Of a DNA stretch of 64,000 bases, positions 6,205 through 40,232 are shown one piece after another (the first letter of the stretch is position 1; the number at the start of each line of letters is the position of its first letter). Source of the stretch: Mayamaea pseudoterrestris (Eukaryota); NCBI GenBank assembly GCA_027923505.1, contig BROI01000004.1:434001-498000 (forward strand), in the 5' to 3' direction. Below the pieces are notes generated by a model that was not told the origin of the DNA, made no database searches, and saw only the letters and a list, made by a program, of their open reading frames with translations. Both the position numbers and the translations under genes were made by a program.

Positions 6205-6331
6205 TGTTGCCTCGTGGTTTATACATTCGCATCCTGCGACGACCGGGTGGGAAGGACGGGATGAAGACGGACCCGCGCCTCGAGATCGTTTTGTCGTTTC
6301 GGTTTTCGATCCGGCTCATTACCTACTAAGT

Positions 6332-6931
6332 GGAAGCTTCCTGAAACTCGCGCAATAGAAAGCGCAAACCGTGTTTCTGGCAGGCGCGCGGCACGTGTCG
6401 CATCGATGTCTCCCGGAAACTCATCGGTCGCAATAGAACGATGACGACGCGCCTTGGTTACTTAGACGAGTCAAATTGCAAGCTCGTCTACGGTACGCTT
6501 CTTAATCAAATAAGCATGGTTTCTATAGGCACCCACCAGGTATAATCTTGTAGCGCAGACTGAATAATGATGTTGGCACCATCTGGTGTGATTTGGTATA
6601 AATGGCATGTTTTATGGTCCAGTTGAAAGTCAGGCATTCCAGGAGGGAGCTAAGACTGGTGAGAAGTCCTCACCAGTCACATTGCAGTTACAAGGTCACC
6701 CACCAGTTGTGGCAGAGATTTGTAGACGTGGACAGCCTAGCAGAGGGTTAATTAAATTTCTATTTGCTGCACGGCCGGCGTATCTCATGGAGAGGAGATG
6801 GGGGGTCGAAATAGGCGAGACTTTGGTGTAATTTTGTCAATAGCAAAAACATATGCCCCCTAAGTAACCAACGAACGACACGTGTCATCCGATCTATTTG
6901 CCATCTATTGCGCGAGTTTCAGGAAGCTTCC
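6332..6931. mobile_element. Non-autonomous TIR element (MITE-like, ~600 bp) containing one satellite monomer
   Basis: Perfect 29-bp inverted repeat at 6331-6359 / 6904-6932 (TGGAAGCTTCCTGAAACTCGCGCAATAGA); inner 12-bp inverted repeat at 6454-6465 / 6860-6871; AGT on both flanks (6329-6331, 6932-6934) as candidate 3-bp TSD. Confidence 0.65.
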
Positions 6932-7658
6932 AGTTGCTTGGGGAAGCAATGCAAACAAGAAGTATCACTCCAATCTTGCATAGTTTGGGTGTATACATGG
7001 ATTGATATAGGGATATATGAATGTCAAGGCACTGGGTGTATACAAGTCATGTTATATAGGCAATGGAATGTCAATTCATCTGTGGGCTGAGACTGGTGAA
7101 GTTCTCACCAGTCACATTGCAGTCTACTAGGGCACCCACCATTAATGCCATCTTGTAGCGCAGACTGAATAAGAATGTTGGCGCCAATCTGGTGTGATTT
7201 GGGTGTATACAAGGCATGGTTTATGGGCATTTAAATGTCAAGGCATCTGTGGGCTTAGACTGGTGAGAAGTTCTCCCCAGTCACATTGCCATCTACTAGG
7301 GCACCCACCAGGTATACCATCTTGTAGCGCAGACTGAATAATGATGTTGGCACCATCTGGTGTGATTTGGGTATAAATGGCATGTTTTATGGTCAATTGA
7401 AAGTCAAGGCATCTGCGGGCTTAGACTGGTGAGAAGTCCTTACCAGTCACATTGCAGTCTACAAGGTCACCCACCAGGTATACCATCTTGTAGCGCAGCC
7501 TGAATAATGATGTTGGCACCATTCTGGTGTAATTTGGGCACCAACAGGGCTTGCTGTAGGGGCGTTTGAATGTCAAGGCATCTGCGGGATGAGACTGGTG
7601 ACAAGTTGTCACTAAGTACATTGCCATCTCCTGAGACACCAGCCAAGCATTACCATCT
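6528..7658 (-). repeat. Diverged subfamily of the 169-bp satellite, inverted relative to the main array (about 5 monomers, interrupted ~6707-6980)
   Basis: Reverse-complement matches to the main unit (cttgtagcgcag.ctgaataatgatgttggcacc); the last monomer (~7480-7658) is close to the main consensus. Confidence 0.85.
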
Positions 7659-9576
7659 CACTGAAAGCCAAAGAAGTTTCTACAGATGGTAACACAGCGG
7701 CGAACGTAAAATCGAAAGCAAACGGGCGCACGCATACCTGGGGCGTAAGGTTGCCGCGCAATTATAAAGATGCGAAAAGCTCTCTCGAGAAACAACACGT
7801 GTGGACGGATGCGAAACGGAAAAATCAGATAAATGATTACCACACGCTCGAGAAAGGAGTGCCGCGCCGCGGGAAACGAATAAACGCGCACATGATATTC
7901 GATGTCAAGCACGATTTGCGATGAAAGCACGACTCGTTGCAGGACATCAAGGCGACAGAGCGGGATTCAGTTTACTCGGGCGGTGTCATTGCTGGGCTCA
8001 CGAATGGTAGCGATGTTAGCGGAACTCAACGGTCTGGAACTGTGGGCAGCTGGACGCCACAACGCATACTTGGAAGCGAAAACAAAAGAGAAGGTTTATA
8101 TCGCGGCAGGTCCGAGTTCGGGAGCTCGAGGGGCAGCACGCACGATCGTGAAGGCATTATACGGTCTCGCATCGCAGCTTATCGCTGGCACGAGCACTTT
8201 GCAGACACGTCCGCTGACATTGGCTTCACGCGTGTAAGAACCGGACGTGGATGCGCTGATAAAGGCACACTACTAATACGCTTGTGTGTATGTCGAAACA
8301 TAGCGATGAAGAAAAGGAAAACTAACGGATCTTTTAATTGAGAACAATCTTAAGCCAGCGGGGGCGCCGCCCATTGGCATACATTTGGGCGCAGACGCTT
8401 AGACGACGACCGCATTTTGCTTCGAGCGAAGGAAGTACGCCACAAGACTACTTAGCGAACTACAAAGAAATGTTCGCACCGCGATCGCAGACAAGTCCAC
8501 TACGCGACGGATTGCTGTGTTGCAATGGGTAAGTTTATGTCGATTCGACATTCACTGTGCTGTCATGACTATGGGGAGATTCCGAGCTGGCGCCCGAGCG
8601 GCAATTTGGAACGGTTGAAGCATATTTGGGGATTACTTACGAAGATACCCGGATGGAGCGATTCGATTCATCACGTTTCGATTCCAACGGACGAGCGATA
8701 CGCGACAGTTGACAAGCATGGATTGGGATTACAGTGTGTACGGCAAGATCTGCGAAGAGCCTGTGGAACATGCCCACGCCGCGCGGCAAGGCGGTGGCGA
8801 ATGTCAACGTCCGAAGATGCGAACCTGTACCACGATTACACGACGGACGGGCAGCGATGGGCATGGCGTACACATGTTGAATGGAACAGTCGTTGATTGG
8901 TTTTCGAAACGCCAAGCGACGGTCGAGACGGCGACGTACGGCTCGGAGTTTGTAGCAGCGAGAGTGAGCACGGAGCAGATCATGGATCTTCGCTTCACGC
9001 TACGCATGTTGGGAGTTCCGCTCGACGGACCTTCATGGATGTTTGGAGACAACAAGTCGGTAACGCAAAGCAGCAACCTACCGCACTCTAGTCTGACGAA
9101 GCGACACAATGCACTGGCATTTCACCGTGTACGCGAAGCGATTGCGGCGGGAATTATTAATTTCAACCACATCATGGGAACGACAAACCCGGCGGATGTA
9201 CTTACCAAGTTTCTTCCACGGGCTACGGCAAGCAAGCACTTAAAGAACCTGCTCTTCAAGGAATCTAACTATTAGGTATGACTTGAGGGGAGTTGCAGGA
9301 TGCGAACGAAAACAGCGAAAATCGGGCAAGTCACACCGAATGTCCGATAGGGTGACACAGCGGCACTCGCGGCTCACCACAGCCTCACGATCGCGTGATG
9401 CGTGGCAGCGACGGCTTCGAAGCGATTCAACAAGTATATTGCTGAAACTAGTGCGATATAGAGTAGAAACAAGCAGACTTACTAAGCTTGAAGAGTTAAG
9501 AAAGCGATTTATTCGTCTCTCGTATTGTAGCAACTGCAAGCTTGGATTGGCCATCCAAGGACAGCTACAAGCGAAA
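7659..9576 (+). mobile_element. Truncated copy of the same Ty1/copia element (RT-RNase H part plus 3' LTR lacking its last 29 bp)
   Basis: Aligns with ~20745-22797 of the intact copy; indel-riddled to ~8870, near-identical afterwards; LTR at 9293-9576. Confidence 0.9.
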
Positions 9577-12500
9577 TCACCGACACTCAAACGCATCTAC
9601 AGCAAGCCCTGTAGGTGCCCAAATTACACCAGAATGGTGCCAACCTCATTATTAAGGCTGCGCTACAAGGTGGTAGGCTTGGTTGGTGTCTCAGGGGATG
9701 GCACAACTTGTCACCAGTCTCAACCAGCAGATGCCGTGACATCTAAACGCCCCAACAGCAAGCCCTGTAGGTGCCCAAATTGCACCAGAATGGTGCCAAC
9801 ATCATTATTCAGGCTGCGCTACAAGACAAGATGGTAGGCTTGGCTGGTGTCTCAGGGGATGGCAATGATATTGGTGACAACTTGTCACCAGTCTCAGCGC
9901 AAAGATGCCGTGACATTCAAACGCCCCTACAGCAAGCCCTGTAGGTGCCCAGATTACACCAGAATGGTGACAACATCATTATTCAGGCTGCGCTACGAGA
10001 TGGTTGGCTTGGTTGGTGTCTCAGGGGATGGCAATGTATTTGGTGACAACTTGTCACCAGTCTCAGCCCGCAGATGCCATGACATTCAAACGCTTCTACA
10101 GCAAGCCCTGTAGGTGCCCAAATTGCACCAGAATGGTGCCAACATCATTATTCAGGCTGCGCTACAAGATGTTAGGCTTGGTTGGTGTCTCCGGGGATGG
10201 CAATGATATTGGTGACAACTTGTCATCAGTCTCAGCCCGCAGATGCCATGACATTCAAATGCTTCTACAGCAAGCCCTGTAGGTGCCCAGATTACACCAG
10301 AATGGTGCCAACAACATTATTCAGGCTGCGCTACAAGATGGCAGGCTTGGTTGGTGTCTCAGGGGATGGCAATGTATTTGGTGACAACTTGTCACCAGTC
10401 TCAGCCCGCAGATGCCATGACATTCAAACGCTTCTACAGCAAGCCCTGTAGGTGCCCAAATTGCACCAGAATGGTGCCAACATCATTATTCAGGCTGCGC
10501 TACAAGATGTTAGGCTTGGTTGGTGTCTCCGGGGATGACAATGATATTGGTGACATCTTGTCATCAGTCTCAGCCCGCAGATGCCATGACATTCAAACGC
10601 TTCTACAGCAAGCCCTGTAGGTGCCCAAATTACACCAGAATGGTGCCAACATCATTATTCAGGCTGCGCTACAAGATGGTAGGCTTGGTTGGTGTCTCAG
10701 GCTATGGCAATGATATTGGTGACAACTTGTCACCAGTCTCAGCTGGCAGATGCTGTGACATTTAAACGCCCCTACAGCAAGCCCAGTCGGTGCCCAGATT
10801 ACACCAGAATGGTGCCAACATCATTATTCAGGCTGCGCTACAAGATGGTAGGCTTGGCTGGTGTCTCAGGGGATGGAAATGTATTTGGTGACAACTTGTC
10901 ACCAGTCTCAGCCCGCAGATGCCGTGACATTCAAACGCCCCTACAGCAAGCCCTGTAGGTGCCCTAATTACACCAGAATGGTGCCAACATCATTATTCAG
11001 GCTGCGCTACAAGATGGTAGGCTTGGCTGGTGTCTCAGGCTATGGCAATGAAATTGGTGACAACTTGTCACCAGTCTCAGCCCCGCAGATGCCGTGACAC
11101 TCAAACGCACCTACAGCAAGCCCTGTAGGTGCCCAAATCACACCAGAATGGTGGCAACCTCATTATTCAGGCTGCGCTACAAGATGGTAGGCTTGGCTGG
11201 TGTCTCAGGGGATGGCATTGTATTTGGTGACAACTTGTCACCAGTCTCAGCCCGCAGATGCCATGACATTCAAATGCCCCTACAGCAAGCCCTGTAGGTG
11301 CCCAAATTACACCAGAATGGTGCCAACATCATTATTCAGGCTGCGCTACAAGATGGTTGGCTTGGCTGGTGTCTCAGGGGATGGCAATGATATTGGTGAC
11401 AACTTGTCACCAGTCTCAGCCGGCAGATGCCGTGACATTCAAACGCCCCTACAGCAAGCCCTGTAGGTGCCCAAAATACACCAGAATGGTGCCAACATCA
11501 TTATTCAGGCTGCGCTACAAGATGGTAGGCTTGGCTGGTGTCTCAGGGATGGCAATGTATTTGGTGACAACTTGTCACCAGTCTCAGCCCGCAGATGCCG
11601 TGACATTCAAACCCCCTTACAGCAAGCCCTGTAGGTGCCCAAATTACACCAGAATAATGCCAACATCATTATTTAGGCGGCGCCACAAGATGGTAGGCTT
11701 GGCTGGTGTCTCAGGGGATGGCAATGTATTTGGTGACAACTTGTCACCAGTCTCAGCCCGCAGATGCCGTGACATTCAAACGCTCCTACAGCAAGCCCTG
11801 TAGGTGCCCAAAATACACCAGAATGGTGCCAACATCATTATTCAGGCTGCGCTACAAGATGGTAGGCTTGGCTGGTGTCTCAGGGGATGGCAATGTATTT
11901 GGTGACAACTTGTCACCAGTCTCAGCCGGCAGATGCTGTGACATTCAAACGCCCCTACAGCAAGCCCTGTAGATGCCCAAATTACACCAGAATGGTGCCA
12001 ACATCATTACTCAGGCTGCGCTACAAGTTAGTAGGCTTGACTGGTGTCTCAGGGGTTGGCAATGTATTTGGTGACAACTTGTCACCAGTCTCAGCCCGCA
12101 GATGCCGTGACATTCAAACACCTTTACAGCAAGCCCTGTAGATGCCCAAAATAACACCAGAATGGTGCCAACATCATTATTCAGGCTGCGCTACAAGTTG
12201 GTAGGCTTGACTGGTGTCTCAGGGGATGGCAATGTATTTGGTGACAACTTGTCACCAGTCTCAGCCGCAGATGCCGTGACATTCAAACGCCCCTACAGCA
12301 AGCCCTGTAGGTGCCTAAAAACACCAGAATGGTGCCAACATCATTATTCAGGCTGCGCTACAAGATGGTAGGCTTGGCTGGTGTCTCAGGGGATGGCAAT
12401 GTATTTGGTGACAACTTGTCACCAGTCTCAGCCTGCAGATGCCATGACATTCAAACGCCCCTACAGCAAGCCCTGCAGGTGCTTAAATCACACAAGAATG

Positions 12501-15500
12501 GTGTTATCATCATTATTCCGGCTGCGCTACAAGATGGTAGGCTTGGCTGGTGTCTCCGGGGATGGCAATGTATTTGGTGACAACTTGTCACCAGTCTCAG
12601 CCAGCAGATGCCATGACATTCAAACGCCCCTACAGCAAGCCCTGTAGGTGCCCAAATTACACCAGAATGGTGCCAACATCATTATTCAGGCTGCGCTACA
12701 AGATGGTAGGCTTGGCTGGTGTCTCAGGGGATGGAAATGTATTTGGTGACAACTTGTCACCAGTCTCAGCCCGCAGATGCCGTGACATTCAAACGCCCCT
12801 ACAGCAAGCCCTGTAGGTGCCCAAAATACACCAGAATGGTGCCAACATCATTATTTAAGCTGCGCTACAAGATGGTAGGCTTGGCCGGTGTCTCAGGGGA
12901 TGGCAATGTGTTTGGTGACAACTTGTCACCAGTCTCAGCCTGCAGATGCCGGGACATTCAAACACCCCTACAGCAAGCCCTGTAGGTGCCCAAAATACAC
13001 CAGAATGGTGCCAACATCATTATTCAGGCTGCGCTACAAAATGGTAGGCTTGGCTGGTGTCTCAGGGGATGGCAATGTATTTGGTGACAACTTGTCGCAG
13101 ATGCCGTGACATTCAAACGCCCCTACAGCAAGCCCTGTAGGTGCCTAAAATACACCAGAATGGTGCCAACATCATTATTCAGGCTGCGCTACAAGATGGT
13201 AGGCTTGGCTGGTGTCTCAGGGGATGGAAATGTGTTTGGTGACAACTTGTCACCAGTCTCAGCCCGCAGATGCCGTGACATTCAAACGCTCCTACAGCAA
13301 GCCCTGTAGGTGCCCAAAATACACCAGAATGGTGCCAACATCATTATTCAGGCTGCGCTACAAGATGGTAGGCTTGGCTGGTGTCTCAGGGGATGGCAAT
13401 GTATTTGGTGACAACTTGTCACCAGTCTCAGCCCGCAGATGCCGTGACATTCAAACGCCCCTACAGCAAGCCCTGTATGTGCCCAAATTACACCAGAATG
13501 GTGGCAACATCATTATTCAGGCTGCGCTACAAGATGGTAGGCTTGGCCGGTGTCTCAGGGGATGGCAATGTATTTGGTGACAACTTGTCACCAGTCTCAG
13601 CCCGCAGATGCCGTGACATTCAAACGCCCCTACAGCAAGCCCTGTAGGTGCCTAAAATACACCAGAATGGTGCCAACATCATTATTCAGGCTGCGCTACA
13701 AAATGGTGGGCTTGGCTGGTGTCTCAGGGGATGGCAATGTATTTGGTGACAACTTGTCACCAGTCTCAGCCGGCAGATGCCGGGACATTCAAACGCCCCT
13801 ACAGCAAGCCCTGTAGGTGCCTAAAATACACCAGAATGGTGCCAACATCATTATTCAAGCTGCGCTACAAGATGGTAGGCTTGGCTGGTGTCTCAGGGGA
13901 TGGCAATGTATTTGGTGACAACTTGTCACCAGTCTCAGCCCGCAGATGCCGTGACATTCAAACGCCCCTACAGCAAGCCCTGTAGGTGCCCAAAATACAC
14001 CAGAATGGTGCCAACATCATTATTCAGGCTGCGCTACAAGATGGTAGGCTTGGCTGGTGTCTCAGGGGATGGCAATGTATTTGGTGACAACTTGTCACCA
14101 GTCTCAGCCCGCAGATGCCGAGACATTCAAACGCTCCTATAGCAAGCCCTGTAGGTGCCCAAAATACACCAGAATTATGCCAACATCAATATTCAGGCTG
14201 CGCTACAAGAAGGTTGGCTTGGCTGGTGTCTCAGGGGATGGCAATGTATTTGGTGACAACTTGTCGCAGATGCCGTGACATTCAAACGCCCCTACAGCAA
14301 GCCCTGTAGGTGCCCAAAATACACCAGAATGGTGCCAACATCATTATTCAGGCTGCGCTACAAGATCGTAGGCTTGGCTGGTGTCTCAGGGGATGGCAAT
14401 GTATTTGGTGACAACTTGTCACCAGTCTCAGCCTGCAGATGCTGTGACATTCAAACGCCCCTACAGCAAGCCCTGTAGGTGCTAAACCAGAATGGTACCA
14501 ACATCATTAATCAGGCTGCGCTAAAAGATGGCAGGCTTGGCTGGTGTCTCAGGGGATGGCAATGTATTTGGTGACAACTTGTCACCAGTCTCAGCTGGCA
14601 GATGCCGTGACATTCAAACGCCCCTACAGCAAGCCCTGTAGGTGCCTAAAATACACCAGAATGGTGCCAACATTCATTATTCAGGCTGCACTACAAGATG
14701 GTAGGCTTGGCTGGTGTCTCAGGGGATGGCAATGTATTTGGTGACAACTTGTCACCAGTCTCAGCCGGCAGATGCCGGGACATTCAAACGCCCCTACAGC
14801 AAGCCCTGTAGGTGCCCAAAATACACCAGAATGGTGCCAACATCATTATTCAGGCTGCTCTACAAGATGGTAGGCTTGGCTGGTGTCTCAGGGGATGGCA
14901 ATGTATTTGGTGACAACTTGTCACCAGTCTCAGCCTGCAGATGCCGTGACATTCAAATGCCCCTACAGCAAGCCCTGTAGGTGCCTAAAATACACCAGAA
15001 TGGTGCCAACATCATTATTCAGGCTCTGCTACAAGATGGGAGGCTTGGCTGGTGTCTCAGGGGATGGCAATGTATTTGGTGACAACTTGTCACCAGTCTC
15101 AGCCGGCAGATGCCGGGACATTCAAACGCCCCTACAGCAAGCCCTGTAGGTGCCCAAAATACACCAGAATGGTGCCAACATCATTATTCAGGCTGCGCTA
15201 CAAGATGGTAGGCTTGGCTGGTGTCTCATGGGATGGGAATGATTTTGGTGACAACTTGTCACCAGTCTCAGCCTGCAGATGCCGGGACATTCAAACACCC
15301 CTACAGCAAGCCCTGTAGGTGCCCAAAATACACCAGAATGGTGCCAACATCATTTATTAAGCTGCGCTACAAGATGGAAGGCTCAGCCGGTGTCTCGGGG
15401 GATGGCAATGTATTTGGTGACAACTTGTCACCAATCTCAGCCTGCAGATGCCGTGACATTCAAACACCCCTACAGCAAGCCCTGTAGGTGCCCAAAGTAC

Positions 15501-16243
15501 ACCAGAATGGTGCCAACATCATTATTCAGGCTGCGCTACAAGATGGTAGGCTTGGCTGGTGTCTCAGGGGATGGCAATGTATTTGGTGACAACTTGTCAC
15601 CAGTCTCAGCCCGCAGATGCCGTGACATTCAAACGCCCCTACAGCAAGCCCTGTAGGTGCCCAAAATACACCAGAATGGTGCCAACATCATTATTCAGGC
15701 TGCGCTACAAGATGGTAGGCTTGGCTGGTGTCTCAGGGGATGGCAATGTATTTGGTGACAACTTGTCACCAGTCTCAGCCCGCAGATGCCGGGACATTCA
15801 AACGCCCCTACAGCAAGCCCTGTAGGTGCCCAAAATACACCAGAATGGTGCCAACATCATTATTCAGGCTGCTCTACAAGATGGTAGGCTTGGCTGGTGT
15901 CTCAGGGGATGGCAATGTATTTGGTGACAACTTGTCACCAGTCTCAGCCTGCAGATGCCGTCATATTCAAATGCCCCTACAGCAAGCCCTGTAGGTGCCT
16001 AAAATACACCAGAATGGTGCCAACATCATTATTCAGGCTGCGCTACAAGATGGGAGGCTTGGCTGGTGTCTCAGGGGATGGCAATGTATTTGGTGACAAC
16101 TTGTCACCAGTCTCAGCCGGCAGATGCCGGGACATTCAAACGCCCCTACAGCAAGCCCTGTAGGTGCCCAAAATACACCAGAATGGTGCCAACATCCTTA
16201 TTCAAGCTGCGCTACAAGATTGTAGGCTTGGCTGGTGTCTCAT
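9577..16243 (+). repeat. 169-bp tandem satellite, left block (~39 monomers)
   Basis: Unit ...ttggtgacaacttgtcaccagtctcagcccgcagatgccgtgacattcaaacgcccctacagcaagccctgtaggtgcc... recurs with 169-bp period. Confidence 0.98.
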
Positions 16244-16556
16244 TTGCAGGATGCGAACGAAAACAGCGAAAATCGGGCAAGTCACACCGAATGTCCGATA
16301 GGGTGACACAGCGGCACTCGCGGCTTACCACAGCCTCACGATCGCGTGATGCGTGGCAGCGACGGCTTCGAAGCGATTCAACGAGTATATTGCTGAAACT
16401 AGTGCGATATAGAGTAGAAACAAGCAGACTTACTAAGCTTGAAGAGTTAAGAAAGCGATTTATTCGTCTCTCGTATTGTAGCAACTGCAAGCTTGGATTG
16501 GCCATCCAAGGACAGCTACAAGCGAAAGGTGCAACGATTTGATTTACAAGTTACAA
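16244..16556 (+). repeat. 5' LTR (313 bp)
   Basis: Direct repeat of 22514-22826; only one mismatch seen (cggcttacca vs cggctcacca). Confidence 0.96.
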
Positions 16557-16570
16557 GATTAACAGTCTTG
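16557..16570 (+). promoter_or_regulatory. Candidate primer-binding site complementary to a tRNA-Asn(GTT) anticodon arm
   Basis: Reverse complement of 16554-16570 is CAAGA-CTGTTAA-TCTTG; no TGG-type PBS follows the LTR. Confidence 0.55.
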
Positions 16571-16703
16571 AGACTCATTGCCTCGGCATAGAGACTTTAT
16601 CGACGAAGAGTACTATTGATTTACGAAGTAACGTGGACGCACGTTGGTTCTTGGCCCGGAAAGTTCCGCAGGTGATAGCAAGAACATTGTCACGACGACA
16701 ACG

Positions 16704-19700: not shown

Positions 19701-22496
19701 CGAGATTCGGGTTCGCCAGGTCATTGCTGGGTTTTGCTGATTAAATTCGTAATCATGATACTGAACGTCCTCGCGACGAAATCGCTGGGATGGCGCACTC
19801 CAACGGAAGTTGCGTTCGGAAATTTGCCGGATATTTCGCCTTTGTTACATTTCAAGTGGTGGGAACCGGTCACGTTTGAGGCGCAGGGGAGTTTTCCCTC
19901 GGCGGTACGATCTGGCAACGGCCGATTTGTGGGCATCGCAGAGAATAGCGGTCCGCACATGACTTTTCTCGTTCTGACGGACGATACGCTTCAGGCGATT
20001 CCGCGCTCCAACGTGGTCTCGCGCAGCTACTTGTTACCACGAGAGTTGCCTTCCTTCCCTGAGTCTGGAGGGGAGATTTCTGAAGAAGCTACACGCGCAA
20101 GCGAGCGAAATTTTGAAACTCCAGATCTCGCGACAGGACGCTACCATAGCACGAATGCGACAGAAAGTAGTCACGACAACTACGAAGGAAACGACGACGA
20201 AACGATTCCGATGGCGAACCACGCCAACGTACCAGCGAAGTTCTTCAGAAGGGCTGAGCAAGAATCAGGGAATAAATGCCCTCTGTTCTCTCCAAGCGAA
20301 CTCATCGGACGCACGTTCGTAAGGGAACACGAAAACGGTCAGAAAATGCGAGCGACTGTATGCGAATATATCGAAGTACGCGATAACGAGCTACTCGAAA
20401 CGACGAAAGGTTTCCTAATCCAAATGGGAGAGGAGCCAGCGAAAGACTTAATAAGTTACAACGAACTGTCGGATTTAATCGAACGACAGATGGACGAAGA
20501 TATACGAAACGATCCGGCGACTCAGTGGGTATTCACGAAGGTAATCGGACACGAGCTTAATTTGAAACCGAACGATCCGACATACAAAGGAAGTTCAAGT
20601 AACGTTCTCGTCGAATGGACTGACGGAACGACGACGTGGGAGCCTCTCGCGATCATGAAGAAGGACGATCCGATAACGATCGCAGAGTATGGACTCAAGC
20701 ACGGCTTACTCGACAAGCCAGGATGGAAGCAGCTGGAGCATTACACTCGGAAGCGAAAGAAGTTTCGACAGATGGTAACAGCGGCGAAACGAAAATCGAA
20801 AGCAAACGGCGTACGCTACAAATTCGGCGTAAGGTTGCCGCGCAATTATAAAGATGCGAAAGCTCTCGACGAGATCAACGGCAACACGCTGTGGACGGAT
20901 GCGATTCGAACGGAATTAAATCAGATAAATGATTACCACACGTTCGCAGATCAAGGAGTCGGTAAGGTTATGCCGGCGCCGTGGAAACGAATAAACGTGC
21001 ACATGATATTCGATGTCAAGCACGATTTGCGACGGAAAGCACGACTCGTTGCAGGAGGACATATGACAGAGCCGCCGAAGGATTCAGTTTACTCGGGCGT
21101 TGTGTCATTGCGAAGTCTACGAATGGTAGCGATGTTAGCGGAACTCAACGGTCTGGAACTGTGGGCAGCTGACGTCGGCAACGCATACTTGGAAGCGAAA
21201 ACGAAAGAGAAGGTTTATATCGTGGCAGGTCCGGAGTTCGGGGAGCTCGAGGGTCACACGCTCACGATCGTGAAGGCATTATACGGTCTTCGCACGTCAG
21301 GCGCACGCTGGCACGAGCACTTTGCAGACACGCTCCGCGACATTGGCTTCACGCCGTGTATCGCAGAACCGGACGTGTGGATGCGCGATAAAGGCACGCA
21401 CTACGAATACGTTTGTGTGTATGTCGACGATTTAGCGATAGCGATGAAGAATCCGAAGGAACTAACGGATCTTTTAATTGAGAACTACAACTACAAGTTG
21501 AAGGGCGTCGGCCCATTGGCATATCATTTGGGCGCAGACGTTTGGCGAGACGACGACGGCGTACTCTGCTTCGGAGCGAAGAAGTACGTCACAAGACTAC
21601 TAGCGAACTACAAAGAAATGTTCGGCGAGGAACCGCGACCGCAGACAAGTCCACTACGCGACGGCGATCATCCGGAACTCGACGAAACGAAAGAACTTGA
21701 CGACGACGGAATTGCGAAGTATCAATCGATAATTGGTGCGTTGCAATGGGCAGTAAGTTTATGTCGATTCGACATTCACTGCGCTGTCATGACTATGGGG
21801 AGATTCCGAGCTGCGCCACGAGCGGGGCACTTGGAACGGTTGAAGCATATTTGCGGATACTTACGACGATACCCGGATGGAGCGATTCGATTCAACGTTT
21901 CGATTCCAACGGACGAGCGATACGCGACAGTTGACAAGATGGATTGGGATTACAGTGTGTACGGCAAGATCTGCGAAGAGCTTCCGTGGAACATGCCCAC
22001 GCCGCGCGGCAAGGCGGTGCGAATGTCAACGTTCGAAGATGCGAACCTGTACCACGATTACACGACGGGACGGGCAGCGATGGGCATGCTACACATGTTG
22101 AATGGAACAGTCGTTGATTGGTTTTCGAAACGCCAAGCGACGGTCGAGACGGCGACGTACGGCTCGGAGTTTGTAGCAGCGAGAGTGAGCACGGAGCAGA
22201 TCATGGATCTTCGCTTCACGCTACGCATGTTGGGAGTTCCGCTCGACGGACCTTCATGGATGTTTGGAGACAACAAGTCGGTAACGCAAAGCAGCAACCT
22301 ACCGCACTCTAGTCTGACGAAGCGACACAATGCACTGGCATTTCACCGTGTACGCGAAGCGATTGCGGCGGGAATTATTAATTTCAACCACATCATGGGA
22401 ACGACAAACCCGGCGGATGTACTTACCAAGTTTCTTCCACGGGCTACGGCAAGCAAGCACTTAAAGAACCTGCTCTTCAAGGAATCTAACTATTAG
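16704..22496 (+). CDS. Gag-Pol polyprotein (1930 aa from first ATG): gag, aspartic protease, integrase, chromodomain-like segment, RT, RNase H
   Basis: ALIDSGAN (PR); ATDTIH / LSDNAKSE / EQNPCE (DDE integrase); KARLVAGG, ADVGNAYL, KALYGL, YVDDL (RT); EDAN, GSEF, GDNKSV, NPADVLTK (RH); uninterrupted ORF. Confidence 0.96.
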   Translation: MAETRAQKDAAFAHVYEENVGVFQDPQFKELFDELGVESLTQLIEMEYDDFATKWNVTTTTTTTTDDGDNVTQETSEHSLTKMKQRTITNAIEWYLAQESPDIKTWSQLTTETLATFVTARAKERVQARNIASVGSGSGAKPPAKESETESKKDESKDSTLTNEGDESKPDSADKVPPTSVDVDTKQSPTSVLDLGDDEDDEKYSDQFTKSIKFSAKDCKEMKLDSSWKQWISELKVIATLHDFHEVFDDDYDPKEKGPKEQKAYAKKNVFVYRIFLTHCRTPSASLAVQQFKKTMDGREVYQRLRTRYEEGATAHIEKERARTELQGMRLTEKWSRPTIEFLALFYKKVIWLLEMDAEALTGLQRYDMLRDAFSEHTGFSASLAGFDGMIAIKKHMGQHDSEDNFAQLYAHLEECCIKYDKKHPSTTKTKRTINQAQSSGTKGGGGGNGGATPSGLSAERFAAIMKKPHASVKDEVWLEMKFDQRKQLKDKRATAPKTPENGWRPRNQRGTATTQTQVNAAHQERHATESVANDHASVPGTINIQPGNSGMSVQTAARSVLQANNASTTTQQVTGSLTTDNTGRGTFSFNMHRRMRVNRAHYERINEGALIDSGANGGLCGGDMLVVSETNAEVDVTGIDDHIVPALKIGTAAGLAKTLSGETILLLCHQYALKRDGPTIHCPNQLRAMGHRVDDIPTMFGGTQRITTNIGGYVLPLAIRDGLVYLDVTKPTFDDLDKYPTVIMTSDVPWDPTVYDVEHAHDDFDERDHDYGSFDERFDDDGITHRNRHTPTRTGDELDVLINRCVRHAQFSRVNLRKLRSKEPDYNALRPYLGWVPTERVQQTLRHTEAWYHLSEHPRLPFRHLTKSRFPAANVQRLRELFATDTIHSDTPALDDGILGHGGATKMQLFVGRESFYTRGYPMKSESEMSNALEDFIREVGAPNGLLSDNAKSETGKAVRDLCRMYNIPQVTTEPGHPEQNPCERHTSHIKPMMENLQRDSGSPGHCWVLLIKFVIMILNVLATKSLGWRTPTEVAFGNLPDISPLLHFKWWEPVTFEAQGSFPSAVRSGNGRFVGIAENSGPHMTFLVLTDDTLQAIPRSNVVSRSYLLPRELPSFPESGGEISEEATRASERNFETPDLATGRYHSTNATESSHDNYEGNDDETIPMANHANVPAKFFRRAEQESGNKCPLFSPSELIGRTFVREHENGQKMRATVCEYIEVRDNELLETTKGFLIQMGEEPAKDLISYNELSDLIERQMDEDIRNDPATQWVFTKVIGHELNLKPNDPTYKGSSSNVLVEWTDGTTTWEPLAIMKKDDPITIAEYGLKHGLLDKPGWKQLEHYTRKRKKFRQMVTAAKRKSKANGVRYKFGVRLPRNYKDAKALDEINGNTLWTDAIRTELNQINDYHTFADQGVGKVMPAPWKRINVHMIFDVKHDLRRKARLVAGGHMTEPPKDSVYSGVVSLRSLRMVAMLAELNGLELWAADVGNAYLEAKTKEKVYIVAGPEFGELEGHTLTIVKALYGLRTSGARWHEHFADTLRDIGFTPCIAEPDVWMRDKGTHYEYVCVYVDDLAIAMKNPKELTDLLIENYNYKLKGVGPLAYHLGADVWRDDDGVLCFGAKKYVTRLLANYKEMFGEEPRPQTSPLRDGDHPELDETKELDDDGIAKYQSIIGALQWAVSLCRFDIHCAVMTMGRFRAAPRAGHLERLKHICGYLRRYPDGAIRFNVSIPTDERYATVDKMDWDYSVYGKICEELPWNMPTPRGKAVRMSTFEDANLYHDYTTGRAAMGMLHMLNGTVVDWFSKRQATVETATYGSEFVAARVSTEQIMDLRFTLRMLGVPLDGPSWMFGDNKSVTQSSNLPHSSLTKRHNALAFHRVREAIAAGIINFNHIMGTTNPADVLTKFLPRATASKHLKNLLFKESNY

Positions 22497-22505
22497 GTAT
22501 GACTT

Positions 22506-22513
22506 GAGGGGAG
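22506..22513 (+). promoter_or_regulatory. Polypurine tract
   Basis: GAGGGGAG directly before the 3' LTR; the same tract precedes the LTR at 9293. Confidence 0.85.
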
Positions 22514-22826
22514 TTGCAGGATGCGAACGAAAACAGCGAAAATCGGGCAAGTCACACCGAATGTCCGATAGGGTGACACAGCGGCACTCGCGGCTCACCA
22601 CAGCCTCACGATCGCGTGATGCGTGGCAGCGACGGCTTCGAAGCGATTCAACGAGTATATTGCTGAAACTAGTGCGATATAGAGTAGAAACAAGCAGACT
22701 TACTAAGCTTGAAGAGTTAAGAAAGCGATTTATTCGTCTCTCGTATTGTAGCAACTGCAAGCTTGGATTGGCCATCCAAGGACAGCTACAAGCGAAAGGT
22801 GCAACGATTTGATTTACAAGTTACAA
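22514..22826 (+). repeat. 3' LTR (313 bp)
   Basis: Direct repeat of 16244-16556. Confidence 0.96.
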
Positions 22827-25800
22827 TCATGGGATGGGAATGATTTTGGTGACAACTTGTCACCAGTCTCAGCCCGCAGATGCTGGGACATTCAAACGCC
22901 CCTACAGCAAGCCCTGTAGGTGCCCAAAATACACCAGAATGGTGCCAACATCATTTATTAAGCTGCGCTACAAGATGGAAGGCTCAGCCGGTGTCTCGGG
23001 GGATGGCAATGTATTTGGTGACAACTTGTCACCAATCTCAGCCTGCAGATGCCGTGACATTCAAACGCCCCTACAGCAAGCCCTGTAGGTGCCCAAAGTA
23101 CACCAGAATGGTGCCAACATCATTATTCAGGCTGCGCTACAAGATGGTAGGCTTGGCTGGTGTCTCAGGGGATGGCAATGTATTTGGTGACAACTTGTCA
23201 CCAGTCTCAGCCCGCAGATGCCGTGACATTCAAACGCCCCCTACAGCAAGCCCTGTAGGTGCCCAAAATACACCAGAATGGTGCCAACATCATTTATTAA
23301 GCTGCGCTACAAGATGGAAGGCTCAGCCGGTGTCTCGGGGGATGGCAATGTATTTGGTGACAACTTGTCACCAATCTCAGCCCGCAGATGCCATGACATT
23401 CAAACACCCCTACAGCAAGCCCTGTAGGTGCCCAAAATACACCAGAATTGTGCCAACATCATAATTCAGGCTGCGCTACAAGATCGTAGGCTCGGCTGGT
23501 GTCTCAGGGGATGGCAATGTATTTGGTGACAACTTGTCACCAGTCTCAGCCCGCAGATGCCGGGACATTCAAACGCCCCTACAGCAAGCCCTGTAGGTGC
23601 CCAAAATACACCAGAATGGTGCCAACATCATTTAATAAGCTGCGCTACAAGATGGAAGGCTCAGCCGGTGTCTCGGGGGATGGCAATGTATTTGGTGACA
23701 ACTTGTCACCAATCTCAGCCTGCAGATGCCGTGACATTCAAACACCCCAACAGCAAGCCCTGTAGGTGCCCAAAGTACACCAGAATGGTGCCAACATCAT
23801 TATTCAGGCTGCGCTACAAGATGGTAGGCTTGGCTGGTGTCTCAGGGGATGGCAATGTATTTGGTGACAACTTGTCACCAGTCTCAGCCCGCAGATGCCG
23901 TGACATTCAAACGCCCCTACAGCAAGCCCTGTAGGTGCCCAAAATACACCAGAATGGTGCCAACATCATTATTCAGGCTGCGCTACAAGATGGTAGGCTT
24001 GGCTGGTGTCTCAGGGGATGGCAATGTATTTGGTGACAACTTGTCACCAGTCTCAGCCCGCAGATGCCGTGACATTCAAACGCCCCTACAGCAAGCCCTG
24101 TAGGTGCCCAAAATACACCAGAATGGTGCCAACATCATAATTCAGGCTGCGCTACAAGATGGTAGGCTTGGCTGGTGTCTCAGGGGATGGCAATGTATTT
24201 GGTGACAACTTGTCACCAGTCTCAGCCTGCAGATGCCATGACATTCAAACGCCCCTACAGCAAGCCCTGTAGGTGCCCAAAATACACCAGAATGGTGCCA
24301 ACATCATTATTCAGGCTGCGCTACAAGATGGTAGGCTTGGCTGGTGTCTCAGGGGATGGCAATGTATTTGGTGACAACTTGTCACCAGTCTCAGCCTGCA
24401 GATGCCGTGACAGTCAAACATGCCTACAGCAAGCCCTGTAGGTGCCCAAAATACACCAAAATGGTGCCAACATAATTATTCAGGCTGCACTACAAGATGG
24501 TATGCTTGGCTGGTGTCTCAGGGGATGGCAATGCATTTGGTGACAACTTGTCACCAGTCTCAGCCCGCAGATGCCGTGACATTTAAACGCCCCTACAGCA
24601 AGCCCTGTAGGTGCCCAAAATACACCAGAATGGTGCCAACATCATTATTCAGGCTGCGCTACAAGATGGTAGGCTTGGCTGGTGTCTCAGGGGATGGCAA
24701 TGTATTTGGTGACAACTTGTCACCAGTCTCAGCTCGCAGATGCCGTGACATTCAAACGCCCCTACAGCAAGCCCTGTAGGTGCCCAAAATACACCAGAAT
24801 GGTGCCAGCATCATTATTCAGGCTGCGCTACAAGATGGCAGGCTTGGCTGGTGTCTCAGGGGATGGCAATGTATTTGGTGACAACTTGTCACCAGTCTCA
24901 GCCCGCAGATGCCGTGACATTCAAACGCCCCTACAGCAAGCCCTGTAGGTGCCCAAAATACACCAGAATGGTGCCAACATCATTATTCAGGCTGCGCTAA
25001 AAGATGGTAGGCTTGGCTGGTGTCTCAGGGGATGGCAATGTATTTGGTGACAACTTGTCACCAGTCTCAGCCTGCAGATGCCGTGACATTCAAACGCCCC
25101 TACAGCAAGCCCTGTAGGTGCCCAAAATACACCAGAATGGTGCCAACATCATTATTCAGGCTGCGCTACAAGATGGTAGGCTTGGCTGGTGTCTCAGGGG
25201 ATGGCAATGTATTTGGTGACAACTTGTCACCAGTCTCAGCCCGCAGATGCCGGGACATTCAAACGCCCCTACAGCAAGCCCTGTAGGTGCCCAAAATACA
25301 CCAGAATGGTGCCAACATCATTATTCAGGCTGCGCTACAAGATGGTAGGCTTGGATGGTGTCTCAGGGGATGGCAATGTATTTGGTGACAACTTGTCACC
25401 AGTCTCAGCCCGCAGATGCCGTGACATTCAAACGCCCCTACAGCAAGCCCTGTAGGTGCTAAACCAGAATGGTACCAACATCATTAATCAGGCTGCGCTA
25501 AAAGATGGCAGGCTTGGCTGGTGTCTCAGGGGATGGCAATGTATTTGGTGACAACTTGTCACCAGTCTCAGCTGGCAGATGCCGTGACATTCAAACGCCC
25601 CTACAGCAAGCCCTGTAGGTGCCTAAAATACACCAGAATGGTGCCAACATCATTATTCAGGCTGCGCTACAAGATGGTAGGCTTGGCTGGTGTCTCAGGG
25701 GATGGCAATGTATTTGGTGACAACTTGTCACCAGTCTCAGCCCGCAGATGCCGGGACATTCAAACGCCCCTACAGCAAGCCCTGTAGGTGCCCAAAATAC

Positions 25801-26952
25801 ACCAATATGGTGCCAACATCATTATTCAGGCTGCGCTACAAGATGGCAGGCTTGGCTGGTGTCTCAGGGGATGGCAATGTATTTGGTGACAACTTGTCAC
25901 CAGTCTCAGCCCGCAGATGCCGTGACATTCAAATGCCCCTACAGCAAGCCCTGTAGGTGCCCAAAATACACCAGAATGGTGCCAACATCATTATTGGGTC
26001 TGCGCTACAAGATGGCAGGCTTGGCTGGTGTCTCAGGGGATGGCAATGTATTTGGTGACAAGTTGTCACCAGTCTCAGCCCGCAGATGCCGTGACATTCA
26101 AACGCCCCTACAGCAAGCCCTGTAGGTGCCCAAAATACACCAGAATGGTGCCAACATAATTATTCAAGTTGCGCTACAAGATGGTAGGCTTGGCTGGTGT
26201 CTCAGGGGATGGCAATGTATTTGGTGACAACTTGTCACCAGTCTCAGCCCGCAGATGCCGTGACATTCAAACGCCCCTACAGCAAGCCCTGTAGGTGCCC
26301 AAAATACACCAGAATGGTGCCAACATCATTATTCAGGCTGCTCTACAAGATGGTAGGCTTGGCTGGTGTCTCAGGGGATGGCAATGTATTTGGTGACAAC
26401 TTGTCACCAGTCTCAGCCCGCAGATGCCGTGACATTCAAACGCCCCTACAGCAAGCCATGTAGGTGCCCAAAATACACCAGAATGGTGCCAACATCATTA
26501 TTCAGGCTGCGCTACAAGATGGTAGGCTTGGCTGGTTTCTCAGGGGATGGCAATGTATTTGGTGACAACTTGTCACCAGTCTCAGCCCGCAGATGCCAGG
26601 ACATTCAAACGTCCCTACAGCAAGCCCTGTAGGTGCCCAAAGTACACCAGAATGGTGCCAACATCATTATTCAAGCTGCGCTACAAGATGGAAGGCTCAG
26701 CCGGTGTCTTGGGGGATGGCAAGGTATTTGGTGACAACTTGTCACCAGTCTCAGCCGGCAGATGCCATGACATTCAAACGCCCCTACAGCAAGCCCTGTA
26801 GGTGCCCAAAATACACCAGAATTGTGCCAACATCATTATTCAGGCTGCGCTACAAGATGGTATGCTTAGCTGGTGTATCAGGGGATGGCAATGTATTTGG
26901 TGACAAGTTGTCACCAGTCTCAGCCCGCACATGCCGTGACATTCAAACGCCC
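22827..26952 (+). repeat. 169-bp tandem satellite, right block (~24 monomers)
   Basis: Same unit, resuming in register after the TSD. Confidence 0.98.
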
Positions 26953-27140
26953 ACCCACCTCCAAGGAGTGTTAGCAAAACAACAACACTTTCAATGAATG
27001 ACACCCCTTCCATACCCAACTCACAGCTCCAGCTGGAGCCATCTGACCCTGCATGGTGTGCTAAACTTACTGGTGTCATAAGTCAAATGCATCTATCATT
27101 GTGCCAGCAACAATGGCATACTCTCATACAATGAAGATAC

Positions 27141-28949: not shown

Positions 28950-29207
28950 GTATTGCCAAGATCGGCCGCAGAAGGAAGTAGTGATCGTTCCATCGATCGC
29001 CCATCGCGCGTCGGCCATGATGGTAGACGTCTCAGCGGTTCACAAACTAATGTCTTTTCAGTGCCGCCGGTCAAGAATTTCCGACGCTCTCGTCGTCACT
29101 CGATGGCAGCATCACAAACCTCATTCTCACACAAAGTTTGACGGAATCTCGAGGATACTATCCAGATTCAGTAGCACATAGTAGTAGCAAAGCAACGCAA
29201 CAGCAAT

Positions 29208-31406: not shown

Positions 31407-31503
31407 ACGAACTAACAAATAAATATAGAGAAAGGCAAGCAATTTTCTATAAGTTTGTTAAATCAGTCTGTTAATAAGACGAATGTTGCACTGCTCGTCC
31501 ACT

Positions 31504-39899: not shown

Positions 39900-40232
39900 A
39901 TGATACATTTGCATGGTGAAGCGCTTGTCGTTGTGCTAGTCATCGTTGGCGTCTTTGTCACATGTCTTTTACTTCTAGCAGCCTGCCTTGGCTGCGGAAC
40001 GTGTCAATCGACGCGACGGATTCGTCGCAGTCAACCTCGAAGCTTTGAAACACTCAATGAACTATTGTTCGAGTTGGACAATGACGAAACTGGAGTGCTT
40101 ATGGAGCAAGGACGAGGACGCGAACAAGTCAGTATTGATTCGTTCTTCGTTGACATTTTGAAGGAGACAAAGCGAGCAACGAGATCACGAGACGACGATG
40201 ATGCAGGCGGCTTGGATGAACCTTTAATTTAG
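39900..40232 (+). CDS. Small single-pass membrane protein, hypothetical
   Basis: ATG-started 110-aa ORF with N-terminal TM segment, basic patch and acidic tail. Confidence 0.45.
   Translation: MIHLHGEALVVVLVIVGVFVTCLLLLAACLGCGTCQSTRRIRRSQPRSFETLNELLFELDNDETGVLMEQGRGREQVSIDSFFVDILKETKRATRSRDDDDAGGLDEPLI

What the first reader, a model, noticed from the sequence alone, without database searches (positions are those of the whole stretch)
6331..26952. Satellite-plus-retrotransposon island: candidate satellite-based centromere or heterochromatin domain
Seen: ~11 kb of a homogeneous 169-bp satellite, a diverged layer at its left edge, an orientation switch, and two copies of one copia family, both within satellite, in otherwise tightly packed genes. 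Established: nucleosome-sized satellites with resident retrotransposons typify many plant and animal centromeres, whereas the characterised Phaeodactylum centromeres are short low-GC regions without satellites. Inference: this may be a different centromere architecture for a diatom, or a dedicated satellite/retroelement partnership.
Basis: partly seen in the sequence, partly recalled or inferred. Interest (0 to 1): 0.8.

Follow-up and report, generated by a model that had tools for sequence, protein, structure and literature searches.

The report
Diatom satellite island colonised by copia
A 20-kb stretch between ordinary diatom genes is a block of a very abundant 169-base satellite repeat, apparently long methylated, into which a young copia jumping gene with a chromatin-reading module has inserted; it may or may not be a centromere.

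Summary
Window 6527-26950 holds 10,785 bases of a 169-bp satellite on the + strand (9582-16242 and 22827-26950; 62 full monomers, mean pairwise identity 0.93, no higher-order period). To its left lies a 1.1-kb inverted layer that is mostly a sister subfamily. The island also holds one intact, young Ty1/copia element (16244-22826; LTRs differ at 1 of 313 bases; 4-bp target duplication; the array resumes in phase) and one 5'-truncated copy (7659-9576), which sits exactly at the orientation switch.

The satellite is strongly CpG-depleted (o/e 0.31-0.34, against 1.13 in the flanks and 1.55 in the copia), as expected of long-methylated heterochromatin. Contigs of two independent studies put the family 4-5 orders of magnitude above single copy, so it is not a single locus. 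The copia polyprotein carries a chromodomain-like fold after its integrase, as reported for diatom CoDi-A elements. That gives a plausible route for heterochromatin-targeted insertion.

Nothing here tests centromere function. GC is 0.51, unlike the known low-GC diatom centromeres. Earlier unchecked notes of this scan report similar satellite islands on other pieces of this genome and one 246 kb upstream on the same piece, so the scan has found this kind before. Verdict: a heterochromatic satellite and retrotransposon island. A centromere role is possible but unsupported.

The parts
4979..6206 (-). Left flanking gene (unnamed, spliced; no Pfam match for its largest frame). Its likely start lies about 320 bases from the first satellite fragment.
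   Evidence: Open frames on the minus strand at 4979-5608, 5707-5970 and 5971-6315. No Pfam family for 4979-5509. CpG o/e of 5510-6526 is 1.26. The gene model is my inference.
6328..6935 (.). 32-nt inverted repeat (arms 6328-6359 and 6904-6935) enclosing 544 bases that include a satellite fragment.
   Evidence: Arms are 97% complementary. The 28-nt core occurs exactly twice in the window and 0 times in 100 shuffles.
6527..7510 (-). Inverted layer of a sister subfamily of the 169-bp satellite. It has a fragment at 6527-6683 and monomers at 6970-7510, 69-80% identical to the main monomer.
   Evidence: BLAST pieces and pairwise alignments to the consensus. CpG o/e is 0.34. Loose ends of public contigs carry the same subfamily-specific letters.
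7511..7658 (-). One main-family monomer (positions 23-169, 92% identity) in inverted orientation, joined in phase to the sister-subfamily monomers.
7659..9576 (+). 5'-truncated copy of the same copia family. It matches element positions 20744-21664 at 84% and 21732-22797 at 97.5%, and its 3' LTR is cut 29 bases short. It sits exactly at the orientation switch, and both ends are illegitimate junctions.
   Evidence: BLAST; junction letters; left neighbour is minus monomer position 23; right neighbour is plus monomer position 106.
9582..16242 (+). Main 169-bp satellite array, part A (39 full monomers; within-part identity 0.922).
   Evidence: CpG o/e is 0.31 and TpG/CpA o/e is 1.65.
16244..22826 (+). 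Full-length Ty1/copia LTR retrotransposon (6,583 bases). It is inserted at monomer position 45-48 and flanked by the 4-bp direct repeat TCAT.
   Evidence: LTRs 16244-16556 and 22514-22826, 313 bases, 99.68% identical. Junction letters. The array stops at monomer position 48 and resumes at position 46. CpG o/e is 1.55.
16704..22496 (+). Single uninterrupted gag-pol frame of 1930 aa (P0001). The integrase core (residues 919-979) comes before the reverse transcriptase (1424-1635), which is the copia order.
20517..20714 (+). Chromodomain-like module between integrase and reverse transcriptase (model residues 80-145). It is preceded by a small beta-barrel (model residues about 12-59; window 20313-20456).
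   Evidence: AlphaFold2 model on a 10-sequence alignment, mean pLDDT 76.3. VIA-align Z is 6-7.7 to chromo and chromoshadow domains. There is no sequence-level match.
22827..26950 (+). Main 169-bp satellite array, part B (23 full monomers; within-part identity 0.947; identity to part A 0.932). It ends at monomer position 118.
   Evidence: CpG o/e is 0.33. A 958-base contig of run X2 spans 26939-27899 at single-copy depth (table 8).
27141..29018 (-). Right flanking gene (625-aa frame with a weak calcineurin-like phosphoesterase match). Its stop codon lies 190 bases from the array.

Best explanation
This is an interstitial island of constitutive heterochromatin. It is a small array of about 64 monomers of a genome-wide, extremely abundant 169-bp satellite superfamily, lying between housekeeping genes of a pennate diatom, probably Mayamaea pseudoterrestris or a close relative.

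Shown:
- The tandem array, its sister-subfamily edge and the inverted orientation of that edge.
- Strong CpG depletion confined to the satellite.
- The family's high abundance in two independent studies.
- A young, intact Ty1/copia element inserted into one monomer with a target duplication.
- A chromodomain-like fold after that element's integrase.

Inferred:
- The array grew and is kept about 93% uniform by unequal exchange and gene conversion. Its edges are more diverged than its middle.
- It has long been CpG-methylated and carries H3K9me-type chromatin, as transposon-rich regions do in Phaeodactylum.
- The copia integrase is tethered to such chromatin through its chromodomain-like module, so copies land in the satellite rather than in the neighbouring genes.
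- The orientation switch comes from a later break-and-rejoin event or inversion with one end inside an older copia copy, not from a designed symmetry.

Whether CENH3 sits on this array is unknown.
For: Array structure. Edge monomers are 85-92% identical to the reference monomer, against 95-98% in the middle.

CpG o/e is 0.31-0.34 in all three satellite parts. It is 1.13-1.14 in both flanks and 1.40-1.55 in the copia copies. C>T plus G>A changes are 126 of 391 differences from the consensus, and 58 of 391 differences fall in the 8 CpG columns out of 169.

Abundance: 75,441 of 555,133 contig records of X1 and 14,013 of 182,933 of X2 lie on a stretch whose only repeat is 650 bases of satellite. 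Summed word depth is 8.2 million against about 79-224 on the flank in X1, and 0.94 million against about 24-57 in X2.

Insertion: LTRs are 99.68% identical, the element is flanked by a TCAT duplication, and the array resumes in phase.

Chromodomain-like fold: of the 50 VIA-align rows shown, 48 align the region of model residues 77-147 (three of them with ranges that reach back to residues 10-12) to chromo or chromoshadow domains or to proteins that contain them, with Z 5.8-7.7. The module is conserved in 9 distant relatives at 37-47% identity. CoDi-A/CoDi-I copia elements of diatoms are reported to carry such a domain, and the domain is thought to direct integration to heterochromatin (passages).

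In P. tricornutum, CG methylation coincides with H3K9me2/3- and H3K27me3-marked transposon regions (passages).

The monomer has no similarity to the copia element and matches no Rfam family or tRNA.
Against: - No methylation, histone or CENH3 data were available. CpG depletion is only an indirect sign of methylation, and a satellite can be CpG-poor because its founder monomer was.
- The chromodomain call rests on fold alone. Pfam, phmmer and a profile search against PDB sequences found nothing. Foldseek gave no match at E <= 0.001. The tool notes that Z under 8 can be a common arrangement.
- Whether the aromatic cage is intact was not tested.
- Targeting is inferred from one clean insertion plus one rearranged fragment in a single window.
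- The tool itself says the abundance figures are not a copy number. Taken at face value (7-28 Mb-equivalents) they clash with the 27-31 Mb genome published for the probable species.
- The assembly through the array could be collapsed.
Confidence: 0.6

Rival explanations
1. The island is, or is part of, the functional centromere of this chromosome. This would be a satellite-based regional centromere with a resident chromodomain retrotransposon, an architecture not known in diatoms.
For: - The monomer is nucleosome-sized and the family is very abundant.
- A 9+9-nt palindromic box is the least variable part of the monomer. It is intact in 57 of about 64 monomers, and only 8 of 2000 shuffles reach such an arm.
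- A retrotransposon with a chromodomain-like module resides in the array, as in plant CRM and Ectocarpus ECR centromeres (passages).
- Copia-type CoLT elements mark CENP-A centromeres in the stramenopile P. sojae (passages).
- The window has no low-GC tract that could be a Phaeodactylum-type centromere instead. The minimum GC is 0.412 over 500 bases and 0.462 over 3 kb.
Against: - The only ChIP-defined diatom centromeres are short, low-GC and free of repeats, and two other diatoms are predicted to be alike (passages). This island has GC 0.51.
- There is no higher-order repeat.
- Only 10.8 kb of satellite is assembled here, with genes 190 and about 320 bases away.
- Earlier unchecked notes of this scan list a second satellite block 246 kb upstream on the same piece and further islands on other pieces. 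That does not fit one island per chromosome.
- No CENH3, Hi-C or genome-wide map could be obtained.
Confidence: 0.12
2. The locus is much larger in the cell than in the assembly. A long array (tens to hundreds of kb) was collapsed to 10.8 kb, so the island's size, and perhaps its internal order, are partly artefacts. This is compatible with either reading above.
For: The family's nominal abundance is 7-28 Mb-equivalents. That far exceeds what small islands could hold. The genome paper of the probable species reports 'Satellites 0' and 7.36% unclassified repeats in a 30.6-Mb nanopore assembly, made from reads of N50 8.6 kb with haplotig purging.
Against: - The two array parts (6.7 and 4.1 kb) are each bounded by unique or copia sequence and are short enough for single long reads to span.
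- A contig of an independent study crosses the right edge at single-copy depth (table 8).
- It is not known that the window comes from the published assembly.
- Depth sums of contigs are not copy numbers (tool warning).
Confidence: 0.3
3. The satellite is a by-product of a mobile element, either tandemised LTR or internal copia sequence, or the cargo of another transposon, rather than an independent satellite.
For: A 32-nt inverted repeat (6328-6359 and 6904-6935) encloses a satellite fragment, which could be the ends of a small non-autonomous element. Copia pieces adjoin the arrays.
Against: BLAST of the monomer at word size 7 hits nothing in either copia copy, and BLAST of the copia hits no monomer. 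The full element interrupts a pre-existing monomer in phase. The inverted repeat occurs only once in the window.
Confidence: 0.03

Closest known systems
Satellite heterochromatin with chromodomain-bearing LTR retrotransposons in plants (centromeric satellites with CRM chromoviruses). The chromovirus rule is that the integrase chromodomain directs integration to heterochromatin (Gao et al. 2008, seen only as a citation).
   Same: A nucleosome-sized tandem repeat, signs of long-term methylation, and a young LTR element with an integrase-linked chromodomain-like module inserted inside the array.
   Different: The element here is Ty1/copia, not Ty3/gypsy. There is no higher-order repeat. The assembled array is only about 11 kb and lies between active-looking genes. 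A centromere location is not shown.
CoDi-A (Llorens et al. 2009, PMC2774666), also called CoDi-I (named in Ustyantsev et al. 2017, PMC5348765): Ty1/copia elements of the diatom Phaeodactylum tricornutum with a chromodomain at the integrase C-terminus.
   Same: A diatom host, the copia domain order and a chromodomain-like module after the integrase (passages).
   Different: Membership of that clade was not tested by a tree. The module here is invisible to Pfam. The passages read say nothing about satellite targets.
Phaeodactylum tricornutum centromeres (Diner et al., bioRxiv 10.1101/096016; passages read).
   Same: Same group of organisms, and both lie between genes.
   Different: Those centromeres are short, low-GC, bound by CENP-A and lack repeats. 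This island has GC 0.51, is built of repeats, and has no tract with GC below 0.41 over 500 bases.
Transposon-marked centromeres of other stramenopiles: Phytophthora sojae CoLT (copia-like, CENP-A ChIP; PMC7082073) and Ectocarpus ECR-1 (LTR element with chromodomain; PMC11541908).
   Same: A specific LTR retrotransposon family sits in a gene-poor repeat island. ECR-1 has an integrase-chromodomain fusion.
   Different: Those centromeres are built of transposons, not of a satellite. In Ectocarpus the satellite described is a 98-bp subtelomeric repeat (passages).

Membership tests
Satellite DNA (tandem repeat array) | Head-to-tail copies of one unit of constant length | tested here: met
   169-bp period with 38.9 and 24.4 copies. 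Monomer-to-monomer register was followed through 66 plus-strand pieces.
Satellite DNA (tandem repeat array) | High copy number in the genome, at more than this locus | tested here: met
   13.6% of X1 and 7.7% of X2 contig records lie on the stretch. Depth is 4-5 orders of magnitude above the flank. The tool warns that this is no copy number. The positions of other loci were not mapped.
Satellite DNA (tandem repeat array) | Non-coding, and not a known RNA gene array | tested here: met
   No Rfam family at gathering score in 5000-28000 and no tRNA. Frames inside the arrays are 102-194 aa. Only one frame reaching into an array (9283-9837) was scanned, and it has no Pfam family.
Satellite-based regional centromere | Occupied by the centromeric histone (CENH3/CENP-A) | not testable with these tools
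   No ChIP data were available, and no RNA or chromatin runs were listed.
Satellite-based regional centromere | One such domain per chromosome | not testable with these tools
   No whole genome is held. Unchecked earlier notes report a second satellite block 246 kb upstream on the same piece.
Satellite-based regional centromere | Higher-order repeat or a homogenised core (common but not universal) | tested here: not met
   Identity is flat at 0.931-0.941 over lags 1-15, and the overall mean is 0.930.
Phaeodactylum-type diatom centromere | A cluster of 100-bp windows with GC <= 32% within about 3 kb, and no repeats | tested here: not met
   The first 50 of the 242 sliding 100-bp windows with GC <= 0.32 that one search printed lie near 2606-2640 and 31378-31397. 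The lowest single window (GC 0.27) lies at 40211. All of these are outside the island. The other positions were not printed. The minimum GC is 0.412 over 500 bases and 0.462 over 3 kb. The island is built of repeats. The criterion is taken from passages.
Ty1/copia LTR retrotransposon | Two LTRs, a target-site duplication, and integrase upstream of reverse transcriptase (RVT_2) | tested here: met
   313-bp LTRs at 99.68% identity. TCAT on both sides; this is 4 bp, where 5 bp is usual for copia by recall. The rve match at residues 919-979 (E 4.4e-4, below Pfam's cut-off) comes before RVT_2 at 1424-1635 (E 3.1e-25).
CoDi-A / CoDi-I chromodomain-bearing copia of diatoms | Chromodomain at the C-terminal side of the integrase | tested here: inconclusive
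   By fold: Z 6-7.7 to chromo and chromoshadow domains over model residues 80-145, with Foldseek probability 0.97 and TM 0.68 to the Rhino chromodomain. By sequence: no match in Pfam, in PDB sequences or with a profile. The aromatic cage was not examined.
CoDi-A / CoDi-I chromodomain-bearing copia of diatoms | Placement within that clade in a reverse-transcriptase tree | not tested

The most novel reading that the evidence does not exclude
This diatom lineage has left the short, AT-rich, repeat-free centromere known from Phaeodactylum and uses megabase-scale arrays of a 169-bp satellite as regional centromeres. The satellite carries a conserved 9+9 palindromic box, and a chromodomain-bearing copia family has specialised on it. 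The island in this window would be one such centromere, or a collapsed piece of one. A large satellite fraction of the genome would have gone unseen in the published assembly and k-mer size estimate.
Probability: 0.12. Interest if true: 0.8.

Novelty: new member of a known kind. Interest (0 to 1): 0.5.

Why it matters
Satellite DNA is almost undescribed in diatoms. Three full-text searches listed no paper on a diatom satellite, and the genome paper of the probable species reports 'Satellites 0'.

If the abundance signal holds, a compact model-sized diatom genome hides a large, methylated satellite fraction that current assemblies and k-mer estimates miss. That would change estimates of its genome size and repeat content. 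It would also reopen the question of whether all diatoms share the simple low-GC centromere on which diatom episome vectors rely.

The clean insertion of a chromodomain-type copia into a monomer also offers a concrete system for testing heterochromatin-targeted integration in a Ty1/copia element.

Tried and rejected
- Whole-genome mapping of the monomer: no genome is held for this window.
- Look-ups of earlier scan notes by sequence, with the main monomer, the sister layer and the copia protein, found no look-alike windows. A 'near' look-up found nothing, and a look-up with negative coordinates was an argument error.
- Two exact-pattern scans of metagenome contigs with conserved monomer cores found 0 stretches. 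This says nothing about conservation in other species.
- No RNA holder was listed among the public runs.
- Runs X6 and X7 (other organism labels, same study as X1) hold satellite contigs and also a few flank contigs at low depth that match the window at or near perfectly. I read this as carry-over of the same organism, not as conservation of the satellite across species.
- The single-sequence structure model of residues 1081-1359 was useless (pLDDT 37.0).
- Pfam at E <= 10, phmmer and a profile search against PDB sequences did not find a chromodomain. Foldseek gave no match at E <= 0.001.
- Folding one monomer as single-stranded DNA was unremarkable (z -0.85; 40 of 200 shuffles fold as well). 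The monomer as a whole is therefore not unusually structured; only the short palindromic box stands out.
- I rejected the idea that the left layer is simply an older, decayed layer of the same family. It is a distinct sister subfamily whose diagnostic letters recur in many public contigs.
- I rejected a subtelomeric position for this island, because genes flank it on both sides and the window has no telomere motif.

Full report
**What is there**

Tandem Repeats Finder reports three 169-bp arrays: 7033-7629, 9703-16242 and 22827-26952. BLAST of one monomer (13172-13340) against the window gives 73 pieces, all inside 6527-7658 (7 pieces, minus strand), 9582-16242 or 22827-26950 (66 pieces, plus strand). 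The plus-strand satellite totals 10,785 bases.

The 62 full plus-strand monomers have a mean pairwise identity of 0.930. Identity does not depend on distance (0.931-0.941 for lags 1-15), so there is no higher-order repeat. Parts A and B are as like each other (0.932) as they are within themselves (0.922 and 0.947). Edge monomers are more diverged (85-92% to the reference) than central ones (95-98%), which is usual for arrays kept uniform by unequal exchange. The GC content of the island (0.50-0.52) equals that of the flanks.

**The retrotransposons**

The stretch 16244-22826 is a complete LTR element.
- Its two 313-base LTRs differ at one position (99.68%).
- It carries one uninterrupted frame of 1930 aa, with a weak integrase-core match at residues 919-979 and a clear RVT_2 match at 1424-1635. 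This is the Ty1/copia order.
- The array stops at monomer position 48 and resumes at position 46, with TCAT on both sides. The element therefore entered a pre-existing monomer and made a 4-bp duplication.

The second 'copy' (7659-9576) is only the 3' end of a related element. It is 84% identical over the first 0.9 kb and 97.5% over the last 1.07 kb, with the LTR cut 29 bases short. Its left end abuts an inverted monomer at position 23, and its right end abuts a plus-strand monomer at position 106 after five unmatched bases. Neither end is an integration junction. One or two break-and-rejoin events, or an inversion with a breakpoint in an older copia copy, explain it best.

**The 'diverged layer'**

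Aligned to the consensus, the rightmost inverted monomer (7511-7658) belongs to the main family (92%). The monomers to its left (6970-7510, and a fragment at 6527-6683) belong to a sister subfamily at 77-79% identity, with blocks of diagnostic differences, joined in phase. The same diagnostic letters turn up as the commonest loose ends of public contigs laid on the main family (table 7). The layer is therefore a second abundant subfamily rather than simple decay.

A 32-nt inverted repeat (6328-6359 and 6904-6935) encloses the leftmost fragment. I cannot explain it.

**Signs of chromatin state**

| Region | CpG observed/expected |
|---|---|
| Satellite part A | 0.31 |
| Satellite part B | 0.33 |
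| Inverted layer | 0.34 |
| Flanks | 1.13-1.14 |
| Copia fragment | 1.40 |
| Full copia | 1.55 |

TpG/CpA is raised to 1.65 in the satellite. C>T and G>A make up 126 of 391 differences from the consensus, and 58 of 391 differences fall on the 8 CpG columns out of 169. This is the footprint expected of long-standing CpG methylation. In Phaeodactylum, DNMT5-dependent CG methylation coincides with H3K9me2/3- and H3K27me3-marked transposon regions (passages). The footprint is indirect, because a founder monomer poor in CpG would look the same. The high CpG of the copia fits its youth.

**Abundance**

No genome is held for the window, so I used public runs. Two runs from two studies hold most words of 24000-33900. 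I laid their contigs on 26300-34000, which contains 650 bases of satellite and 7 kb of unique genes, at 85% likeness.

| Run | Contig records laid | Summed word depth, satellite bins | Depth, flank bins |
|---|---|---|---|
| X1 | 75,441 of 555,133 | 8.24, 3.70 and 0.98 million | 79-224 |
| X2 | 14,013 of 182,933 | 0.94, 0.45 and 0.09 million | 24-57 |

Taken at face value this gives 7-28 Mb-equivalents. The tool warns that such sums are no copy number, and I use them only as 'four to five orders of magnitude above single copy'. The family is therefore far from a single locus, and the 64 monomers here are a very small part of it.

Runs X6 and X7 (other organism labels, same study as X1) carry satellite contigs, but also flank contigs at depth 1-3 that match the window at or near perfectly. 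I read that as carry-over, not conservation. One X6 contig joins a monomer to CCCTAA repeats. This is a single weak hint that some copies lie next to telomere-like repeats.

**Organism and published record**

Residues 1150-1360 of the copia protein are 99% identical to a protein that NCBI names as from Mayamaea pseudoterrestris. Nine further relatives (37-49% identity) come from unnamed environmental records. The genome paper of that species (PMC9724779; passages and supplementary table S3 read) reports:
- a 30.6-Mb assembly in 41 contigs, from nanopore reads of N50 8.6 kb;
- a k-mer size estimate of 27.2 Mb;
- Ty1/Copia at 10.79%, unclassified repeats at 7.36% and 'Satellites 0'.

Its main text never uses the words satellite or telomere. 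If the window is from this species, the satellite is unreported, and the nominal abundance conflicts with the published size. High-copy k-mer cut-offs and purging of high-depth contigs could hide it (my inference from recalled tool behaviour), or the depth sums could be inflated.

**The chromodomain lead**

- Sequence methods see nothing.
- A single-sequence model failed (pLDDT 37.0).
- With a 10-sequence alignment the model of 20280-20846 reached pLDDT 76.3.
- Foldseek gave no match at E <= 0.001. Its list holds the Rhino chromodomain (probability 0.97, TM 0.68) and cpSRP43, MSL3, CHD1 and SETDB1 domains.
- VIA-align aligned 999 chains; 110 reached Z >= 5 and none reached Z >= 8. Of the 50 rows shown, 48 align the region of model residues 77-147 to chromo or chromoshadow domains or to proteins that contain them (three rows have ranges starting at residues 10-12). 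The other 2 rows align residues 1-71 to Tudor domains.

For a 55-residue domain this is a consistent but not conclusive fold assignment. Chromodomains at the integrase C-terminus are already published for diatom CoDi-A/CoDi-I copia elements. They are thought to steer integration into heterochromatin, as in chromoviruses (passages).

**Centromere or not**

The ChIP-defined centromeres of Phaeodactylum are short, low-GC and free of repeats. Thalassiosira and Fistulifera are predicted to be alike (passages). The window has no such tract: the minimum GC is 0.412 over 500 bases. The window therefore holds neither a classical diatom centromere nor evidence against one elsewhere on the chromosome.

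Other stramenopiles show that centromere types vary. P. sojae has CoLT copia clusters and Ectocarpus has ECR chromodomain LTR elements.

Points for a centromere role:
- the nucleosome-sized unit;
- the high abundance;
- the resident chromodomain element;
- a 9+9-nt palindromic box that is the least variable part of the monomer (variability 0.009; intact in 57 of about 64 monomers; 8 of 2000 shuffles reach such an arm). Its sister-subfamily version differs by a matched change in both arms.

Points against:
- ordinary GC;
- no higher-order repeat;
- the small assembled size, with genes 190 and about 320 bases away;
- unchecked earlier notes of several such islands, one of them 246 kb upstream on the same piece.

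I put the centromere reading for this island at about 0.12.

**Literature check on novelty**

Searches for diatom + centromere + satellite (54 papers), diatom + 'satellite DNA' + tandem (29 papers) and diatom / telomere-to-telomere / centromere / tandem repeat (15 of 1,303 papers listed) showed no paper that describes a diatom satellite family, judged from titles and abstract starts. Subscription journals are not covered.

**Verdict**

This is a real island of satellite and retrotransposon heterochromatin. It is of a kind well known in plants and animals, new for diatoms, and already met by this scan on other DNA of the same genome. Its centromere role is open.

Noticed in passing
window 6328-6359 and 6904-6935: A 32-nt inverted repeat (97% complementary; its 28-nt core is exact, with 0 matches in 100 shuffles) encloses 544 bases that include a sister-subfamily satellite fragment. 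It could be the ends of a small non-autonomous element or the scar of a small inversion.
   Followed up: partly
window, every monomer (e.g. 13236-13256); consensus positions 66-84: The palindromic box TGGTGACAA-C-TTGTCACCA is the least variable block of the monomer and is intact in 57 of about 64 monomers. The sister subfamily's consensus carries the same box with a matched C/G swap in both arms. It could be a protein-binding or cruciform site.
   Followed up: partly
window 26455 (loose end of one contig of run X6, table 7): One public contig joins a satellite monomer to CCCTAA telomere-type repeats. This hints that some copies of the family lie beside telomeric or telomere-like repeats.
   Followed up: no
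window 7659-9576 compared with 20744-22797: The truncated copia is a mosaic. Its first 0.9 kb is 84% identical to the full element and its last 1.07 kb is 97.5% identical, with 68 bases of the full element missing between them. That suggests a different subfamily with a converted or recombined 3' end.
   Followed up: no
window 26300-26950 in runs X1 and X2: The nominal satellite mass (7-28 Mb-equivalents) is as large as the whole published assembly of the probable species (30.6 Mb, 'Satellites 0'). Either a large satellite fraction is missing from that assembly and its k-mer estimate, or the contig-depth sums are inflated.
   Followed up: partly
window 26373-26881 (loose ends and joints, tables 5 and 7): Many contigs switch from main-family to sister-family letters at fixed monomer positions (near positions 48 and 136-141). 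Chimeric monomers of the two subfamilies therefore seem common in the genome.
   Followed up: no
window 16557-16590: The site just after the 5' LTR, where a primer-binding site is expected, was not examined. Earlier notes of this scan report unusual (self-priming or palindromic) primer sites in copia elements of this genome.
   Followed up: no
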